64,000 nucleotides of DNA from the human T2T-CHM13v2.0 reference genome, Homo sapiens (GCF_009914755.1 NC_060936.1); one strand, 5' to 3'. Shown: positions 22,297-38,249, counted from the first letter of the stretch. Notes: generated by a model from the letters alone, not told the origin. A program made the numbers and translations.

Positions 22297-22404
22297 CATT
22301 CCAGGACCGCAGTCTGTTCCATCTGCTGGTGGCACGTGTTGAGTGAAACAGCCTTTGTGAAGCTTTTCTGTGCTTGTGCACCACAGATGCATGCATATAT
22401 TCTC
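22297..22404 (-). CDS. ADAMTS20: ADAMTS20 exon (probably 11), disintegrin-like domain; acceptor at 22404 or 22401 (NAGNAG)
   Basis: 108 or 105 nt; (E)NICMHLWCTSTEKLHKGCFTQHVPPADGTDCGPGM; ATG|gtaggt donor; phase 0/0. Confidence 0.93.
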
Positions 22405-23992: not shown

Positions 23993-24134
23993 TATATGGG
24001 GACACATTTGTGACCCAGGACCAAACGCAAGCTCACACTGCTTGTTTCCATCATATCGTGATCCAGGAAGTTCTGAAGGCAGATTATATATTTCTTCATC
24101 TGGTTTGTCAAGAAGACATTCCCCGTAACCAGTA
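23993..24134 (-). CDS. ADAMTS20: ADAMTS20 exon (probably 10), end of catalytic domain and start of disintegrin-like domain
   Basis: 142 nt; [47 protein letters not shown]; ATA|gtaaga donor; phase 2/0. Confidence 0.96.
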
Positions 24135-26053: not shown

Positions 26054-26197
26054 TCTAGGAATTCAGTAACATATTTCCGACTACAGTTTGACCAGCTCCA
26101 AGGACTCATGTGAAAACTTAAAGCGGGGGCCATTACATGATACTTTGTAACTTTCATTTCTTTACATCTAGGATTATCATCATGTTGAACACCAAGT
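26054..26197 (-). CDS. ADAMTS20: ADAMTS20 exon (probably 9), third zinc His and Met-turn
   Basis: 144 nt; LGVQHDDNPRCKEMKVTKYHVMAPALSFHMSPWSWSNCSRKYVTEFL(D); phase 2/2. Confidence 0.96.
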
Positions 26198-28000
26198 CTA
26201 AAAATAAAAATAAACACTTAAAAGGAATATCAAAAGATGCTTACGATATTAGTAATAGATCCTTTATAGTCACATTATAATACAATATAAAATATAGATA
26301 AATCTGGTTATATCATAATTTGAACTCCATCTATCCATAAGGCCTTAACAGTGTTCATGTTTAGAAGTACCTGATGACTGAGAAATATTATAGGCTGGTG
26401 ATCTGGCATCTAATCTACACAATCAAAATATTTGGACTCTGTTGCACCTCATCACAATATGGACCACAGCATTGACATAAAAGTGCCTGCAGGTTCAACA
26501 TGGATATCCCATGTTGTGGATAGAGAAGTGTGTGGATAGAGATTAGGTAAAGGTAATACCACACTAAATTCTAGACCATTGACTATGGCTACAATATCAC
26601 AAGAACTTCGTGAATCCCCAATTCTCACCATTCTACAGTATCCATCTATTTTATATGAAAGACCCTAAATACTATTTTAGGTCCATACTTCCTAAGTGAT
26701 GCCCAACAGAACTAGAATAATAAAAACATTCCTAAAGGGCAGTCACATCTTCATGACTTAATTATTAAGTAATTAGCAGGTTGGCAGCAGATCCTATACA
26801 ATTTGGGGGGAACTCAAGTATAAGCTCAAGTTTAGAAGGAACACTGAAACCACTTAATTCAGATCCTTGCCTGCTAAAATTTGTATTTAAACAATCTTTT
26901 AAATTAAACAACTTACCCATATACTAGAGACACCTAAAGAGTTTCTCAGGAAGAAAACAAATATCTAAGATAGTACTCTCTGCAAAAATCGTCTTCTACT
27001 GGTTAGTAGCCTTGAAAACCAGCACATAGTGCCACCCAGATGTTGCCGCAATACTTCTACTGTCCTCAGATATTCTGTTCTTCCTATCCCCCGACTTCAT
27101 AAACTACTTACAAAATAAAGTGTGTAGCTTGTTGATGATTATGAGATATAACCATGCAAAAAGGGAACTGAAGAGATGATCGTTTACTAAAAATTATCTC
27201 CATTTGAAATTATTATTCCCCTTGAATGTTCTAATGATTTCTCAAGGCATGACTAGGAAATTAAATGTGGTCAAACTAACAGAGGCAACTCTAGACTCAG
27301 GTCCTTATTAGCAGATAACAAAGAAACACCAGGAGTTCTGAGGGGTACATTTAGAATCTTTTTTCAGAGGATACATTTGTAGGGGTTTCTGATTTTCCAT
27401 GGGAGCTCCAAGGGTATCATGAGAAATCACGGCCTCTATTCTTACAACACAGAACCCCAGCATATTTTTCAGTAATACAGGAAAAGGTAAGAGAATCCCA
27501 AATTTTTATGAGCAACTATGGAAAAAGTGAATACTTTAAAAAAAATCTTTTAGTAACTAAGAAATTCCCATGGGCAATATCCTCTGTTGGGGCACATTAC
27601 TGAGAGCAAGAAATGAGTTGGTATTACAAATATTTGGGGGAGTCCCCCAGAACCAGGAGCCCATGCAGGCCCTCCCATAAAATGGTAGAGGACAGTACCT
27701 GGTCATATATAGGATAACAAGAGACAGAGGCCAGAAGTGCTTGTCATGTATCCAATACAGTAAAGGAAATAAAAGAACTCCCAAGTTCTAGTTCTTTGCT
27801 TAGTCTGTTGATCTGTGCAGCCTGTCTGACCTAACATAGATCACAAAAGAGCCAGAGTTAGCATTTCAGGGAAGAAAATTACACTAATAACATTTTATGA
27901 AGAAACAAAGGTACTAATTACTCAACTGAAGATAGAATTTCAGGCATTCTGTGCAAAGATAAATAGAATGCACATTAAGGAGGTGACAGAAGGTACTTAC

Positions 28001-28106
28001 GTGTGCCCAAGCTCATGGGCTATAGTAAAAGCAGAAATGAGTCCTTTTTCTTCATTAATAAAGCAGCTTTGTAAAGGATCACATATGGTACCTAAATATG
28101 ATAAAC
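28001..28106 (-). CDS. ADAMTS20: ADAMTS20 exon (probably 8), first part of the zinc-binding motif
   Basis: 106 nt; (G)[34 protein letters not shown](T); ttttcag acceptor, AC|gtaagt donor; phase 1/2. Confidence 0.96.
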
Positions 28107-30608
28107 CTGAAAAATTTCACATTTGTATTTCATCAAAATGGAAAACACTACCAAAATCATAAAGAACTTAATTTTGAAGCATTTAACCATTGATGTTATT
28201 ACTTAGAAAAGAATGCAGAATTGGCTGTTAATATTGAATAAACGTTTTAAAAGGTGAAAAAGAGAATGGAATGATTTATTTGCAGTTGAAATCATCTTTG
28301 CAAATTTTGGGAATCTACTGAAGTAAATAATCCAAAATGTAGAGTGAGCAAACAACTTTTTAAATATTTTTAAAAAATTTTTAAAAAGAAAAGAATATTT
28401 GCAGGAAGTATGAAGTGTTTTAACACATTAGCATGGGTAGCAGGAAAGAGATTAAATGTGTTGATTGGTAATAGAAAAGCTAATAAGAGAAAAAAATGGC
28501 ACAGAACTCTACAAATCTATGAAGTTTCTTTACTTTTTTAAGGTTTAAAGCAGTATACAAATATTCAATTATCACATGACATGAGTAAAAAATAAGTGGT
28601 CAGAATAATGTCTGGCATTTAATATATGTTAAATAAAATAAAACGAGTTTATAATATAAGAATTACTGCCGTCACTGAATAATTTTGTAACATTTCCGCA
28701 ATAGGAAATGTATTGCAAATCAGGATATATTTAGTTCTATGTAAAGAATAACATGCAACTCAAATGTGCTGTTGAAAGATGAAGGTATGAACTGGCTGGA
28801 CACCAAAGACAGCAATAATTATCATATATGCAGTCCTCTAAAAATAATATAGGATAAGAAACTCAAAATAAATATTCATTACAACAATCCATACTTCACC
28901 ACCAATCATGTTAGTTTTTCATTTACTTATTTTTTAGCTTAACATAATCCCATGATTTTGCTATTATTACCCTTCAATTTGGTTGTAAATTTATCTGCTT
29001 TCCTAGAACTCTTCCTTTCACAAAAAAAAGATTTTTTCATAGATAATCAGTTTCTTACTGTAAAGCTTTTGCATTTAGAAATGTCTTAATATAGAATAAA
29101 CAGACTTCATTAGCTCCTAGTTTAGCTCTTCCCTGCTATGTCATCTTTTATTCTTAGGAGTTAAAAACTTGAACATCTTCTTAGCATTTAAGGTAGATGT
29201 CCTAACAACTAGAATGTTTTTGTTGTGCTTTAAGAGAAATGGAAGTTAAACTGAGGAATCCAAATAAGCTGGGGAAAAGCCAAAAGATGAAGAAGTTCAT
29301 TAGCCAATACTTTTTAATAAAAAGGAAAGATTTGCTCTCTTTCTGACCACACCATCAAAAGGTCTTGCTTCGGCAAGGTCCCTCCAGAAAACGAGCTTTT
29401 TCCTTACAATGAAGACTAAAATCAAGCAAGGAAAAAAATTAAAAAGAACAAAAAAATTATTTCTCTGTAGAGAAATTATTTCCTCTGTAGAGTGTGAGGG
29501 AATTACTGGTTTCCTTAAGATTCTACAATTCATGCTTGCATGTTCAGTTTTTTAGTGGATCATCATCTTATTATATGTTTCTCTTTTGTCAGGATAAGTT
29601 TAAGGGAAACGCATTTCTTTCATGGACATCCTACAGTAGGATTTATTAGTATTTTCAATTTGCCAAATTACACAATTCCAATATTTTCATTTTTAGCACT
29701 ATGCAGATATTTGGAACACATTATTGAGTCCATTACCAACCAAACTTTATGTTTCATGCTTAAAGGTATATACATTTTAAACTGAACATTTTAGTCACAT
29801 AAGAGATTTGTAAAAATATGTATCAAATATGATTAGAGACCAAGCTCAAATATTCCCGTAAGCAGGCAACACCTACAAAACTCAAAGTAAATGGTTAATA
29901 TTATGGAAACATGCTGCTGGTTGATGGTTTGTGTCTAGACTCATTCAAGCTAATTCTGGGTTCTCTAAAAGTTTAAAGATAGAATAAGGCAGCATGGGCC
30001 CAAGCTTGATACAGGTTCCCTGTGTTTGGAAATACAAGAAGCTGCATACAGCCACCCAATCTAGCCATCCTGAAGAATGAAAATCATTCTGCAACATATT
30101 TTGCAAAACATGGTCAGGGACTGAGGCAACAATAAACGTAAATGGAGATATAACAGAAAATCTAGTAATTACTACCAACATTTTGTGTTTATTATTAAGA
30201 ACTCTCCTTAGTTTGTTATTTTCACATATTTCAGATGAGAAAATAAAATACTAACATTTGCATTAATATAAGCTGTGTGGTCTTCTGCAAATTATTCATC
30301 CTCATCTATAAAATTAGAATAAGAGTTGTTCAGATATAGTATCTCATAGGAAGCATTCAAATACCTTAACTATCGGGGAGGAGCCAAGATGGCCGAATAG
30401 GAACAGCTCCGGTCTACAGCTCCCAGCGTGAGCGACGCAGAAGACGGGTGATTTCTGCATTTCCATCTGAGGTACTGGGTTCATCTCACTAGGGAGTGCC
30501 AGACAGTGGGCGCAGGCCAGTGGGTGCACGCACCCTGCGAGAGCCGAAGCAGGGCGAGGCATTGCCTCACCTGGGAAGCGCAAGGGGTCAGGGAGTTCCC
30601 TTTCCGAG

Positions 30609-30824
30609 TCAAAGAAAGGGGTGACGGACGCACCTGGAAAATCGGGTCGCTCCCACCCGAATATTGCGCTTTTCAGACCGGCTTAAAACACGGCGCACCA
30701 CGGGACTATATCCCACACCTGGCTCGGAGGGTCCTACGCCCACGGAGTCTCGCTGATTGCTAGCACAGCAGTCTGAGATCAAACTGCAAGGCGGCAGCGA
30801 GGCTGGGGGAGGGGCGCCCGCCAT
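30609..30824 (-). CDS. L1 ORF0 (antisense, 71 aa), intact
   Basis: MAGAPPPASLPPCSLISDCCASNQRDSVGVGPSEPGVGYSPVVRRVLSRSEKRNIRVGATRFSRCVRHPFL*; internal donors after nt 106 (30719) and nt 191 (30634). Confidence 0.85.
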   Translation of the reverse strand: MAGAPPPASLPPCSLISDCCASNQRDSVGVGPSEPGVGYSPVVRRVLSRSEKRNIRVGATRFSRCVRHPFL

Positions 30825-31279
30825 TGCCCAGGCTTGCTTAGGTAAACGAAGCAGCCAGGAAGCTCGAACTGGGTGGAGCCCACCACAGCTCAAGGAGGCC
30901 TGCCTGCCTCTGTAGGCTCCACCTCTGGGGGCAGGGCACAGACAAACAAAAAGACAGCAGTAACCTCTGCAGACTTAAATGTCCCTGTCTGACAGCTTTG
31001 AAGAGAGCAGTGGTTCTCCCAGCACGCAGCTGGAGATCTGAGAACAGGCAGACTGCCTCCTCAAGTGGGTCCCTGACCCCTGACCCCCGAGCAGCCTAAC
31101 TGGGAGGCACCCCCCAGCAGGGGCACACTGACACCTCACATGGCAGGGTATTCCAACAGACCTGCAGCTGAGGGTCCTGTCTGTTAGAAGGAAAACTAAC
31201 AAACAGAAAGGACATCCACACCGAAAACCCATCTGTACATCACCATCATCAAAGACCAAAAGTAGATAAAACCACAAAG

Positions 31280-32296
31280 ATGGGGAAAAAACAGAACAGA
31301 AAAACTGGAAACTCTAAAACGCAGAGCGCCTCTCCTCCTCCAAAGGAACGCAGTTCCTCACCAGCAACGGAACAAAGCTGGATGGAGAATGACTTTGACG
31401 AGCTGAGAGAAGAAGGCTTCAGAAAATCAAATTACTCTGAGCTACGGGAGGACATTCAAACCAAAGGCAGAGAAGTTGAAAACTTTGAAAAAAATTTAGA
31501 AGAACGTATAACTAGAATAACCAATACAGAGAAGTGCTTAAAGGAGCTGATGGAGCTGAAAACCAAGGCTCGAGAACTACGTGAAGAATGCAGAAGCCTC
31601 AGGAGCCGATGCGATCAACTGGAAGAAAGGGTATCAGTGATGGAAGATGAAATGAATGAAATGAAGTGAGAAGGGAAGTTTACAGAAAAAAGAATGAAAA
31701 GAAATGAGCAAAGCCTCCAAGAAATATGGGACTATGTGAAAAGACCAAATCTACGTCTGATTGGTGTACCTGAAAGTGATGCGGAGAATGGAACCAAGTT
31801 GGAAAACACTCTGCAGGATATTATCCAGGAGAACTTCCCCAATCTAGCAAGGCAGGCCAACGTTCAGATTCAGGAAATACAGAGAACGCCACAAAGATAC
31901 TCCTCGAGAAGAGCAACTCCAAGACACATAATTGTCAGATTCACCAAAGTTGAAATGAAGGAAAAAATGTGAAGGGCAGCCAGAGAGAAAGGTCGGGTTA
32001 CCCTCAAAGGGAAGCCCATCAGACTAACAGCGGATCTCTCGGCAGAAACCCTACAAGCCAGAAGAGAGTGGGGGCCAATATTCAACATTCTTAAAGAAAA
32101 GAATTTTCAAGCCAGAATTTCATATCCAGCCAAACTAAGCTTCATAAGTGAAGGAGAAATAAAATACTTTACAAACAAGCAAATGCTGAGAGATTTTGTC
32201 ACCACCAAGCCTGCCCTAAAAGAGCTCCTGAAGGAAGCGCTAAACATGGAAAGGAACAACCGGTACCAGCCACTGCAAAATCATGCCAAAATGTAA
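31280..32296 (+). pseudogene. L1 ORF1p, disrupted
   Basis: MGKKQNRKTGNSK start, 1017 nt; premature TGA at 31667-31669 and 31970-31972. Confidence 0.93.
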
Positions 32297-32335
32297 AGAC
32301 CATCGAGACTAGGAAGAAACTGCATCAACTAATGA

Positions 32336-36191
<3,856 letters not shown>

Positions 36192-36409
36192 ACAATGAGA
36201 TCAGCTGGACACATGAAGGGGAATACCACACTCTGGGGACTGTGGTGGGGTGGGTGGAGGGGGGAGGGATAGCATTGGGAGATATACCTAAGGCTAGATG
36301 ACGAGTTAGTGGGTGCAGCACACCAGCATGGCACATGTATACATATGTAACTAACCTGCACAATGTGCACATGTACCCTAAAACTTAAAGTATAAAAAAA
36401 AAAAAAAAA

Positions 36410-36470
36410 GTGTCAGACATGATACAAGATGATTTAAATAAAAGACCTCTAAATAAAAAAAAAAAAAAAA
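36410..36470 (+). other. L1 3' transduction (45 bp plus second poly-A)
   Basis: Non-L1 sequence between two poly-A tracts, AATAAA at 36437-36442, inside the TSD pair. Confidence 0.88.
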
Positions 36471-38249
36471 CAATTACCTTAACTATCGTTATAATCATTA
36501 CTCTTGACTTAAGGGATAATAATGCTTTCATCATCACATTATACGTTTCTAAATGTCATTATAATTTATGTACACAGGAGTGGCAGAAAGCTATAAAACC
36601 ATAATTGGGGACTAGAAGACCAACAATTTCTATAGGAATAGTCCAGAATGTCTAGCATTCAAGCACTAAAAAAATAGTAAGAAATGACAGATACTCAGTA
36701 AAAGTTCATACTACTTAAGTTTAAAGATGGGACAACAGGGTATAGATAATGCAAGAAATATATTCAGTAGATTCTTATTAAGTGATCTCATAAAATACTC
36801 TTAACAAACCCAGAGAATAGTTTGTAGGGAGGAAGAAATTCAGTCTGTTGTAAAAATTAGAGCAACAAGTGCCTATTTCTACAAGTGTGGAAGACTGGCA
36901 TTTCCAAAGAACCCCTTAACATAAAGAAACTAGATATTTAATAAAAACTAGGTTTTAATGAAAGCCTAGCTCACATGACTAGTGAGGACTATCAAGTCCA
37001 AACCTCAGTGATTTAGCACACATATGCACTCTCTCTCTCTTCTTTGTCTCTTTCTTTCTCTCTCTCTCTCTCAATACACAAGCATGCAGGCATATGTACA
37101 CACATATACACACATTCATACTTTTCAAATTCTAGGCGGTAAGCAATGAATAATAAGGATAGATGCTATTCTGAGGGCAAATACTGATAAAAGTAATATG
37201 GTCCAAAGAGTAAGAGCTTGCTAGAGGAAGCTTCAAGGTGCATGTGGATGTTGAGTTTTCTTCATTAAGCCAGGGACTCAAGTTATGAACACCCTTTGGA
37301 CTCCAACAAGAAATAAAAATCTCTAGAAGAAAGCACACACTTTTTGAGCCAGCAATTTTTCAACCCCATGGCTTAATATTAAATAAATATAAGCTCAAAA
37401 TCAAAGACCATCAAACAAACAAATAAATAAGAGAACATACGTAAAAGAAGAAATAAGATGTATGGCTATCATGTATTTCAGATATGTGAATTTTCAGATA
37501 CGTAATATAAAATTATTCCACATAAGATGTTTAAGAAAATGAAATTCAATTAAAAACATGCACAAATATTTTTTAAATGTAAACAAAACGAACAGGTAGA
37601 TTTTTAATAAGAACTAAGTAGTATCTTTTACATTGAAAAATATATATATTTTAAAATGTAAAATGTGAAGGATGGGTGAAATACCAGATTAGACATAGCT
37701 AAAGAGAGAGCCAAATATACTAATTTATATTAGTAAAATGGAAATTAGAGCTGCTTGAATGAAGCACGAAGAGAAAAAAAATGAAAGCACAGACAGCAGA
37801 ATGAGAAGATCTAATACAGATGTAGTAGAATCCCACGGTGAAAACAGATAAAATAATAGGATAAAATTTGAAAGAAAAAAATGAAAATTTTCCAAAATTG
37901 CTGGAAGATAAACAGTAGATATAGGACTCATGACATAGCCCAAGCAGGATAAATAAAAAGAAACATACCTATATTAGGATGAAGTTTTAATGAAACTGCT
38001 TTATATTCAAGACAAAGAGAGGATCTTATAAAAGACAGATCACCAAAAAATCTACAACTAAACCCACTACAGATTTCTCAATAGCAAAAGGCAGGCACAA
38101 CACAATCATATATTCAAGATATTGAGAGAAAATAACTGTCAACCTAGAATCGGTAACTAGAAAAATATATTTTGAAAATAAGAGTATTTGCCTGTTAAAT
38201 CAGGAAAAAACTGAAACCTATGAGTTATTTTAGTAAATTACTGAATTAG

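What the first reader, a model, noticed from the sequence alone, without database searches (positions are those of the whole stretch)
28001..30824. L1 ORF0 splice donor is in frame with the zinc-motif exon: predicted ORF0-ADAMTS20 fusion from the L1 antisense promoter
Seen: the L1PA2-like element lies antisense to ADAMTS20, so its antisense promoter points in the gene's direction, about 2.3 kb upstream of exon 28001-28106. ORF1 and ORF2 are dead, but ORF0 (ATG at 30824) is intact. Donor 1 (CCAG|GTGTGG, last exonic base 30719) is phase 1, and the next host exon also starts in phase 1. Splicing would give MAGAPPPASL...[20 protein letters not shown]...HELGHTLGVQHD, continuing through all downstream domains. 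Donor 2 (30634, phase 2) is in frame with exons 26054-26197 and 23993-24134 instead. Established: the L1 antisense promoter drives chimeric transcripts (L1-MET type), and ORF0 forms fusions with nearby exons via these two donors. Inference: an isoform lacking signal peptide, prodomain and half the catalytic domain, probably non-secreted and protease-dead, could arise when this L1 is demethylated (germline, pluripotent cells, tumours).
Basis: partly seen in the sequence, partly recalled or inferred. Interest (0 to 1): 0.85.

Follow-up and report, generated by a model that had tools for sequence, protein, structure and literature searches.

The report
L1 antisense promoter inside ADAMTS20
A dead but full-length L1PA2 retrotransposon sits backwards in an ADAMTS20 intron, and its small antisense gene ORF0 could splice in frame onto the next ADAMTS20 exon, but this is a common arrangement and no evidence shows that the fusion is made.

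Summary
ORF0 (30824..30609, minus strand) is intact at 71 aa. Donor 1 (last exonic base 30719) is phase 1 and reads in frame into exon 28106..28001 and all eight further window exons. Donor 2 (30634) is in frame with exons 26197 and 24134. L1 ORF1 and ORF2 are broken.

The frame match is not remarkable: two donors in two phases fit two of the three acceptor phases. An intact ORF0 is expected in about 87% of cases, given the lesion density in ORF1 and ORF2.

The hub annotation already holds a RefSeq exon 27699-30865. It reads as a first exon starting in the L1 antisense promoter, 41 nt upstream of the ORF0 ATG. It uses none of the L1 donors and runs through the zinc-motif exon into a stop.

A published table calls this element a full-length L1PA2 in ADAMTS20, nearly unmethylated in two of 12 cell lines. 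Two catalogues of L1 chimeric transcripts do not contain ADAMTS20.

A third donor (30571), the strongest, lies after the ORF0 stop. The host acceptor is weak.

Verdict: an ordinary member of a known class. The fusion is possible but unproven, and the product would probably be non-functional.

The parts
30375..36470 (+). Full-length L1PA2 insertion, antisense to ADAMTS20. The L1 body ends in a 16-A tail at 36394-36409. A transduced tail and a second poly(A) follow.
   Evidence: The 5' end GGGGAGGAGCCAAGATGG starts at 30375. ORF1 and ORF2 remnants are, the poly(A) tails. A published table lists a full-length L1PA2 on the + strand in ADAMTS20.
30358..30374 (.). 5' target-site duplication. It is 17 nt with one mismatch to the 3' copy; 13 nt (30362-30374) match exactly.
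   Evidence: Read by eye.
36471..36487 (.). 3' target-site duplication. It lies after the second poly(A).
   Evidence: compared.
36410..36470 (+). Probable 3' transduction: about 45 nt of non-L1 sequence (36410-36454) followed by a second 16-A tail (36455-36470).
   Evidence: The target-site duplication follows the second tail, not the first.
30375..31279 (+). L1 5'UTR, 905 nt. GC is 0.58. The first 500 nt hold 33 CpG (observed/expected 0.72). It contains the sense and antisense promoters.
   Evidence: The RefSeq functional element 'enhancer 30589-31129' (hub table) lies inside it.
30609..30824 (-). ORF0, 71 aa, intact. The ATG context is gggcaATGg (G at -3 and G at +4). No Pfam family matches.
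30717..30719 (-). Donor 1 (CAG|GTGTGG). Last exonic base 30719, phase 1, in frame with exon 28106.
   Evidence: U1 duplex energy -7.1 kcal/mol.
30632..30634 (-). Donor 2 (CAG|GTGCGT). Last exonic base 30634, phase 2, in frame with exons 26197 and 24134 but not with 28106.
   Evidence: U1 duplex energy -7.8 kcal/mol.
30569..30571 (-). Donor 3 (CAG|GTGAGG). It lies 36 nt after the ORF0 stop, so using it gives no fusion. It is the strongest donor by U1 pairing.
   Evidence: U1 duplex energy -11.6 kcal/mol, stronger than all 13 annotated donors, which range from -4.5 to -10.5.
27699..30865 (-). RefSeq exon of another ADAMTS20 transcript, read here as an alternative first exon of 3167 nt. Its start is at L1 nt 491 in the antisense promoter and its donor is CAG|GTACTG at 27699.
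   Evidence: Hub table. 30865 is preceded by 'tc', not AG. 27699 is followed by GT. The exon holds 73 ATGs, the first being the ORF0 ATG. The ATG at 27706 opens the native frame across the presumed junction to 26197.
28001..28106 (-). ADAMTS20 exon encoding the start of the HELGH zinc motif. Its acceptor is weak: 8 of 17 pyrimidines at -20..-4.
26054..26197 (-). Next ADAMTS20 exon. It holds the rest of the zinc motif and the Met-turn, and starts in phase 2.
31280..32296 (+). L1 ORF1 remnant. There are premature in-frame stops at codons 130 and 231. The natural stop is at codon 339.
32360..36191 (+). L1 ORF2 remnant. One frame change near 33438-33463 splits it into pieces of 367 and 917 aa.

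Best explanation
This is an ordinary full-length, coding-dead L1PA2 inserted antisense in an ADAMTS20 intron, about 2.3 kb upstream of the zinc-motif exon. Its 5'UTR keeps a CpG-rich bidirectional promoter and an intact ORF0 with both internal donors.

When the copy is unmethylated, the antisense promoter probably fires occasionally in the direction of ADAMTS20. The likely main products are non-productive. One is read-through RNA like the RefSeq model (30865..27699, then spliced on). The other is RNA spliced from the strongest donor, 30571, which lies after the ORF0 stop. In both, ORF0 is translated, if at all, as a stand-alone 71-aa peptide acting as an upstream ORF.

The in-frame 30719>28106 fusion is geometrically possible and may exist as a minor isoform. 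Its product would lack the signal peptide, the prodomain and about 55% of the catalytic domain. It would probably be cytosolic, misfolded and without function.

Shown here: the sequence anatomy and frames, the published L1PA2 label and methylation values, and the existence of the RefSeq exon. Inferred: that 30865 is a real start site, which donors are used, and the fate of the protein.
For: Anatomy and frames are.

The RefSeq exon 27699-30865 has no AG at its 5' edge and a GT at its 3' edge. Read-through of the 28001 donor puts a stop right after the exon (sequence).

Donor 30571 pairs best with U1, at -11.6 kcal/mol against -7.1 and -7.8 for the two ORF0 donors.

The host acceptor has 8 of 17 pyrimidines. 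Thirty-one of the 133 AGs between 30688 and 28107 pass the same crude filter. Four AATAAA and two ATTAAA hexamers lie on the path.

The table in Lanciano 2024 lists this L1PA2 with values of 0.015 and 0.13 in two of 12 cell lines and 0.63 to 0.93 in the other ten. Phokaew 2008 reports an 'L1-ADAMTS20' locus that is completely unmethylated in one carcinoma line.

Base rate as told by Criscione 2016: about 3200 genic ORF0 loci, of which 57 have an observed fusion.

Catalogues: ADAMTS20 occurs 0 times in 10 supplementary files of Criscione 2016 and 0 times in 3 files of PMC9396940.

The furin site lies 119 residues before the fusion point. The first 35 ORF0 residues have no stretch with mean 9-residue hydropathy above 1.4.
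Against: No expression data (CAGE, junction reads, long reads) could be consulted, so the relative use of the donors is inferred from sequence alone.

The U1 duplex energy and the pyrimidine count are crude proxies. The native acceptor at 28106 is used constitutively by the host gene despite its weak look.

An EST-based catalogue (Criscione 2016) would miss rare or cell-type-restricted transcripts.

In Lanciano 2024, ADAMTS20 was found only in file 4, which was cut when stored. I could not confirm that the paper's chimeric-transcript table was among the 9 files searched.

The hub table does not say which exon follows 27699-30865, nor what evidence supports it.
Confidence: 0.62

Rival explanations
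1. One reading: when this L1 is demethylated, the antisense promoter yields an appreciable, translated ORF0-ADAMTS20 fusion through donor 1 to exon 28106, or donor 2 to exon 26197.
For: The frame is open through all 9 downstream window exons. The ORF0 ATG is the first ATG after the annotated start at 30865 and has G at -3 and +4. The donor 1 and donor 2 energies fall within the range of the 13 real donors. The copy is almost unmethylated in two of 12 cell lines. ORF0-exon fusions are documented at 57 loci according to Criscione 2016.
Against: The only annotated transcript from this promoter does not use these donors (hub table). ADAMTS20 has 0 hits in two catalogues. There is a stronger donor after the ORF0 stop. 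The acceptor is weak and has many decoys. The observed fusion rate is about 57 of 3200 loci.
Confidence: 0.18
2. The antisense promoter of this copy is effectively silent. The 5' end at 30865 is then a modelling artefact, for example host pre-mRNA coverage that stops where reads cease to map uniquely inside the repeat.
For: The modelled first exon is odd. It is 3167 nt long, holds 73 ATGs, and ignores both three L1 donors and the strong native donor at 28001. The copy is 63-93% methylated in 10 of 12 cell lines. No paper reports such a transcript.
Against: The end lies 491 nt inside the L1, not at its edge. That is within the first 600 bp of the 5'UTR, where Criscione 2016 places antisense start sites. 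A RefSeq 'enhancer' feature covers 30589-31129 (hub table).
Confidence: 0.12
3. The L1 5'UTR matters here mainly as an enhancer or as a source of transcriptional interference for the host gene. The antisense RNA output would be irrelevant.
For: RefSeq annotates 30589-31129 as an enhancer (hub table). The CpG-rich 5'UTR is retained.
Against: Nothing here tests enhancer activity on ADAMTS20, and the class and source of the RefSeq feature are unknown to me.
Confidence: 0.08

Closest known systems
L1 ORF0 loci and ORF0-gene exon fusions (Denli et al. 2015, Cell 163:583). The paper is not held. I know it only through its description in Criscione 2016 and from recall.
   Same: There is an antisense ORF of 71 aa in the 5'UTR of an L1PA2, a strong start context, and two donors inside the ORF. 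The element is antisense in an intron, so the ORF points at host exons.
   Different: No junction or peptide evidence exists for this locus. I could not check whether it is among the 57 reported fusions. That donors 1 and 2 are the published donors is recalled, not tested.
L1 antisense-promoter chimeric transcripts (L1-MET type; catalogue of 988 in Criscione et al. 2016, PMC4908685)
   Same: The start site lies inside the first 600 nt of a young L1 5'UTR, antisense, and sense to the host gene, downstream of the host start site. That is the commonest configuration (2134 of 2316 overlaps are sense to the gene).
   Different: ADAMTS20 is not in that catalogue nor in the supplements of PMC9396940. 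The RefSeq model runs unspliced out of the L1 instead of splicing from an L1 donor.
Locus-specific L1 methylation entries: 'L1-ADAMTS20' (Phokaew et al. 2008, PMC2553567) and chr12 L1PA2 in ADAMTS20 (Lanciano et al. 2024, PMC10879037, supplementary file 4)
   Same: Both describe a full-length intronic L1 in ADAMTS20 whose methylation varies strongly between cell lines.
   Different: Neither passage I saw reports a transcript. Identity of the Phokaew locus with this copy is unproven because its supplementary table could not be read.

Membership tests
Full-length L1PA2 element | About 6 kb with a 5'UTR of about 900 nt, ORF1 and ORF2 in order, a poly(A) tail and target-site duplications | tested here: met
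   The 5'UTR is 905 nt. ORF1 and ORF2 remnants are in order. Poly(A) tails and a 17-nt duplication with one mismatch are present.
Full-length L1PA2 element | Subfamily assignment | tested here: inconclusive
   I ran no subfamily classifier. A published table labels a full-length + strand L1 in ADAMTS20 as L1PA2. The 3'UTR reads GAG where I recall ACA for the youngest human subfamily (the diagnostic is recalled).
L1 ORF0 locus | Intact antisense ORF of about 71 aa in the 5'UTR | tested here: met
   30824..30609 encodes 71 aa. The length of 71 aa is stated in Criscione 2016.
L1 ORF0 locus | Two splice donors inside the ORF | tested here: met
   CAG|GT sites have their last exonic bases at 30719 and 30634. 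That they equal the published donors is recalled.
L1 antisense-promoter chimeric transcript | [quoted passage not shown] | tested here: inconclusive
   The RefSeq exon edge at 30865 lacks an acceptor. This is an inference from an annotation; no CAGE or read data were available.
L1 antisense-promoter chimeric transcript | Transcript joins L1 sequence to host exons | tested here: inconclusive
   The exon 27699-30865 contains host exon 28001-28106 and ends in a donor. The hub table does not name the downstream partner.
L1 antisense-promoter chimeric transcript | Listed in published catalogues | tested here: not met
   ADAMTS20 has 0 occurrences in 10 supplementary files of PMC4908685 and 0 in 3 files of PMC9396940.
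ORF0-host fusion protein | Donor phase compatible with the host exon, giving an open frame | tested here: met
ORF0-host fusion protein | Observed junction reads or peptide | not testable with these tools
   No transcriptome, Ribo-seq or proteome data are on hand.

The most novel reading that the evidence does not exclude
In cells where this hominoid-age L1PA2 is unmethylated, the antisense promoter would act as a lineage-specific alternative ADAMTS20 promoter. Candidate cells are those behind the 0.015 and 0.13 values, and possibly trophoblast, where ADAMTS20 is expressed. The 30719>28106 isoform would be translated into an intracellular ORF0-tagged ADAMTS20 lacking secretion and protease activity. 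That product could be a tumour- or germline-restricted antigen, or a non-canonical intracellular form of the ancillary domains.
Probability: 0.07. Interest if true: 0.55.

Novelty: new member of a known kind. Interest (0 to 1): 0.25.

Why it matters
If the fusion were made, it would be one more case of a young retrotransposon supplying a promoter and a start codon to a host gene. Here the gene is ADAMTS20, a secreted protease linked to clefting and pigmentation. It could also be a source of tumour-restricted junction peptides. As it stands, the locus is a well-formed but typical example. Its practical value is as a candidate for junction look-ups in cell lines where this exact copy is already known to be unmethylated.

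Tried and rejected
Literature. Ten full-text searches found no paper joining ADAMTS20 with ORF0, 'antisense promoter', L1PA2 or chimeric LINE-1 transcripts. These were; one search failed on a term that was too short. The ADAMTS20 plus LINE-1 hits are mostly dog clefting papers and Phokaew 2008 (listing only). The main text of PMC10506190 has no ADAMTS term.

Papers and tools I could not reach. Denli 2015 is not held, so its list of 57 fusions was not checked. The Phokaew 2008 supplementary table could not be read. Paper reading closed. As a result the supplements of PMC12791003 and other candidate papers were not searched, and the column header of the Lanciano table was not seen.

Protein search. 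I searched with ORF0 for longer proteins, hoping to find annotated fusions. It returned 2067 hits, of which 120 were listed. These are 131-289 aa, mostly covering 90-100% of ORF0, with no Pfam domains. I took them to be unspliced ORF calls on genomic DNA and did not inspect them further. They say nothing about spliced fusions.

Target-site duplication. A first scripted search found none because its right-hand window was too short. Reading the sequence found it.

Rejected ideas. I rejected 'ORF0 is kept intact by selection', because intactness is the expected outcome (about 87%). I also rejected 'the frame match is significant', because its prior is about 2/3.

Full report
**What is in the sequence**

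On the minus strand, which is the ADAMTS20 sense strand, an ATG at 30824 opens a 71-aa ORF that ends at 30609. It lies inside the 5'UTR of an L1 on the plus strand.

The L1 starts at 30375 with GGGGAGGAGCCAAGATGG. Its 5'UTR is 905 nt. ORF1 starts at 31280 and has premature in-frame stops at codons 130 and 231. ORF2 starts at 32360 and changes frame once, giving pieces of 367 and 917 aa.

The L1 body ends in a 16-A tail at 36394-36409. About 45 nt of non-L1 sequence and a second 16-A tail (36455-36470) follow. Only then comes the 3' copy of the target-site duplication (36471-36487). It matches 30358-30374 at 16 of 17 positions. The insertion therefore carries a short 3' transduction.

A supplementary table of Lanciano et al. 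2024 lists a full-length, plus-strand L1PA2 in ADAMTS20 on chr12 (PMC10879037, file 4; I saw two passages).

- Donor 1 is CAG|GTGTGG with last exonic base 30719, 106 nt from the ATG, so phase 1.
- Donor 2 is CAG|GTGCGT with last exonic base 30634, 191 nt from the ATG, so phase 2.
- All 13 exons of the selected transcript in the window have AG and GT borders. Their joined native frame is open.
- Exon 28106..28001 begins with one codon base already supplied.

Joining 30719 to 28106 in silico gives 35 ORF0 residues, then a glycine identical to the native one, then the native ADAMTS20 frame. The frame stays open for 426 codons through all 9 downstream window exons. 30634>26197 and 30634>24134 are also open. 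The other three combinations stop early.

**Is it remarkable?**

Not statistically. Two donors in phases 1 and 2 fit two of the three possible acceptor phases. Six of the 9 downstream window exons fit one or the other donor.

ORF1 plus ORF2 carry three disabling lesions in 4845 nt. At that rate the 216-nt ORF0 expects 0.13 lesions, so it stays intact about 87% of the time. This is my arithmetic.

According to Criscione et al. 2016, there are about 3200 genic ORF0 loci, of which 57 showed an ORF0-exon fusion in Denli et al. 2015. The same paper reports that 2134 of 2316 overlaps between L1 antisense ESTs and gene exons are sense to the host gene (PMC4908685, passages). The arrangement here is the common one.

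**Evidence that this copy's antisense promoter is used**

The hub table lists an exon 27699-30865 belonging to another ADAMTS20 transcript. On the minus strand 30865 is preceded by 'tc', not AG. 27699 is followed by GT, in the context CAG|GTACTG. I therefore read it as a 3167-nt first exon.

Its start is at L1 nt 491, which is 41 nt upstream of the ORF0 ATG. That is within the first 600 bp of the 5'UTR, where Criscione 2016 places antisense starts. RefSeq also marks 30589-31129 as an enhancer (hub table).

The Lanciano table gives twelve values for this copy: 0.129, 0.801, 0.816, 0.832, 0.825, 0.629, 0.015, 0.832, 0.908, 0.763, 0.790 and 0.933. They follow a list of twelve cell lines. If the columns follow that list, the two low values belong to 2102Ep and K562. 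I did not see the header.

Phokaew et al. 2008 report an 'L1-ADAMTS20' locus that is completely unmethylated in one carcinoma line (PMC2553567, passages). Its supplementary table could not be read, so identity with this copy is not shown.

**Evidence against the specific fusion being a main product**

- The RefSeq first exon leaves all L1 donors unspliced. It runs through the 2.3-kb intron piece and the zinc-motif exon, and ignores that exon's strong donor. Reading through that donor gives a stop immediately after the exon.
- That exon holds 73 ATGs. The first is the ORF0 ATG. The ATG at 27706, 8 nt before the donor, would open the native frame only if 27699 joins 26197.
- A third donor, CAG|GTGAGG with last exonic base 30571, lies 36 nt after the ORF0 stop. 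It pairs best with the U1 5' end, at -11.6 kcal/mol. Donors 1 and 2 give -7.1 and -7.8, and the 13 annotated donors range from -4.5 to -10.5 (the U1 motif is recalled). Transcripts using this donor would carry ORF0 as a separate upstream ORF.
- The acceptor of exon 28106 has 8 of 17 pyrimidines at -20..-4, joint second-lowest of the 13 annotated acceptors. Thirty-one of the 133 AGs between 30688 and 28107 pass the same crude filter. Four AATAAA and two ATTAAA hexamers lie on the way. These are heuristics, not trained scores.
- ADAMTS20 does not occur in the 10 supplementary files of Criscione 2016 or in the 3 files of PMC9396940. In Lanciano 2024 it occurs only in file 4 of the 9 files searched. 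File 4 holds the locus rows shown. It was cut when stored, and I could not confirm that the chimeric-transcript table was among the 9 files.
- None of the ten searches returned a paper on such a transcript.
- Criscione 2016 puts the primary antisense start at about L1 nt 400. That would be downstream of the ORF0 ATG at nt 450. Part of any antisense output would then lack the ORF0 start codon.

**What the fusion protein would be**

In the window's native translation, the furin-type RKKR site is at residues 45-48. The fusion point is at residue 168, and HELGHTLGVQHD starts at residue 198.

The exon at the fusion point aligns to Reprolysin PF01421 positions 106-141 of 200 (E 0.19). The next exon aligns to positions 143-188 (E 0.013). 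Both are below threshold because the pieces are short. Downstream exons match ADAMTS_CR_2 and TSP_1. The fusion would thus keep roughly the last 45-48% of the catalytic domain plus all the ancillary domains.

The 35 ORF0 residues have no hydrophobic stretch; the highest 9-residue mean hydropathy is 1.39. ORF0 has no Pfam family.

From established knowledge of metzincins and thrombospondin repeats, I infer the following. Without a signal peptide, the disulfide-rich domains would not fold in the cytosol. The half catalytic domain would be inactive.

**Conclusion**

The locus is a textbook full-length L1PA2 with a working-looking antisense unit. It is already catalogued in methylation studies, and its antisense start is apparently already captured by a RefSeq model.

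The in-frame ORF0-ADAMTS20 fusion is a legitimate prediction that I did not find in print in the searches named above. It is one of many such possible fusions. It lacks any direct support. The only annotated transcript from this promoter, and the splice-site context, both argue against it being common.

Denli 2015 and several supplements could not be seen and may bear on this conclusion.

Noticed in passing
window 36394-36487: The L1 carries a probable 3' transduction. After its own 16-A tail come about 45 nt of non-L1 sequence containing AATAAA and a second 16-A tail. Only then comes the target-site duplication. The transduced tag could identify the source element.
   Followed up: partly
window 27699-27706 (minus strand): A cryptic donor, CAG|GTACTG, lies 302 nt inside the intron after the zinc-motif exon and is used in a RefSeq model. 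An ATG 8 nt before it is in frame with exon 26197. This would give an N-terminally truncated ADAMTS20 lacking the HELGH histidines. With 72 upstream ATGs in that first exon, translation from it seems unlikely.
   Followed up: partly
window 22401-22404 (minus strand): There is a tandem acceptor (CAG then GAG) at the exon 22297-22401/22404. It explains the alternative exon in the hub table and adds or removes one codon.
   Followed up: no
window 30817-30824: The ORF0 start codon sits inside an ATGGCGG motif. Criscione 2016 places a second YY1 ChIP peak and a predicted YY1 site at L1 nt 448-453, which is the same place in this copy (nt 450 is the A of the ATG).
   Followed up: no
proteins P0001-P0120: The large protein database holds over 2000 ORF calls containing ORF0-like sequence. 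The 120 listed are 131-289 aa. They come from very long chromosome-sized records and from short metagenome contigs. These look like unspliced ORF predictions over primate L1 5'UTRs, including probable host DNA in metagenomes.
   Followed up: no
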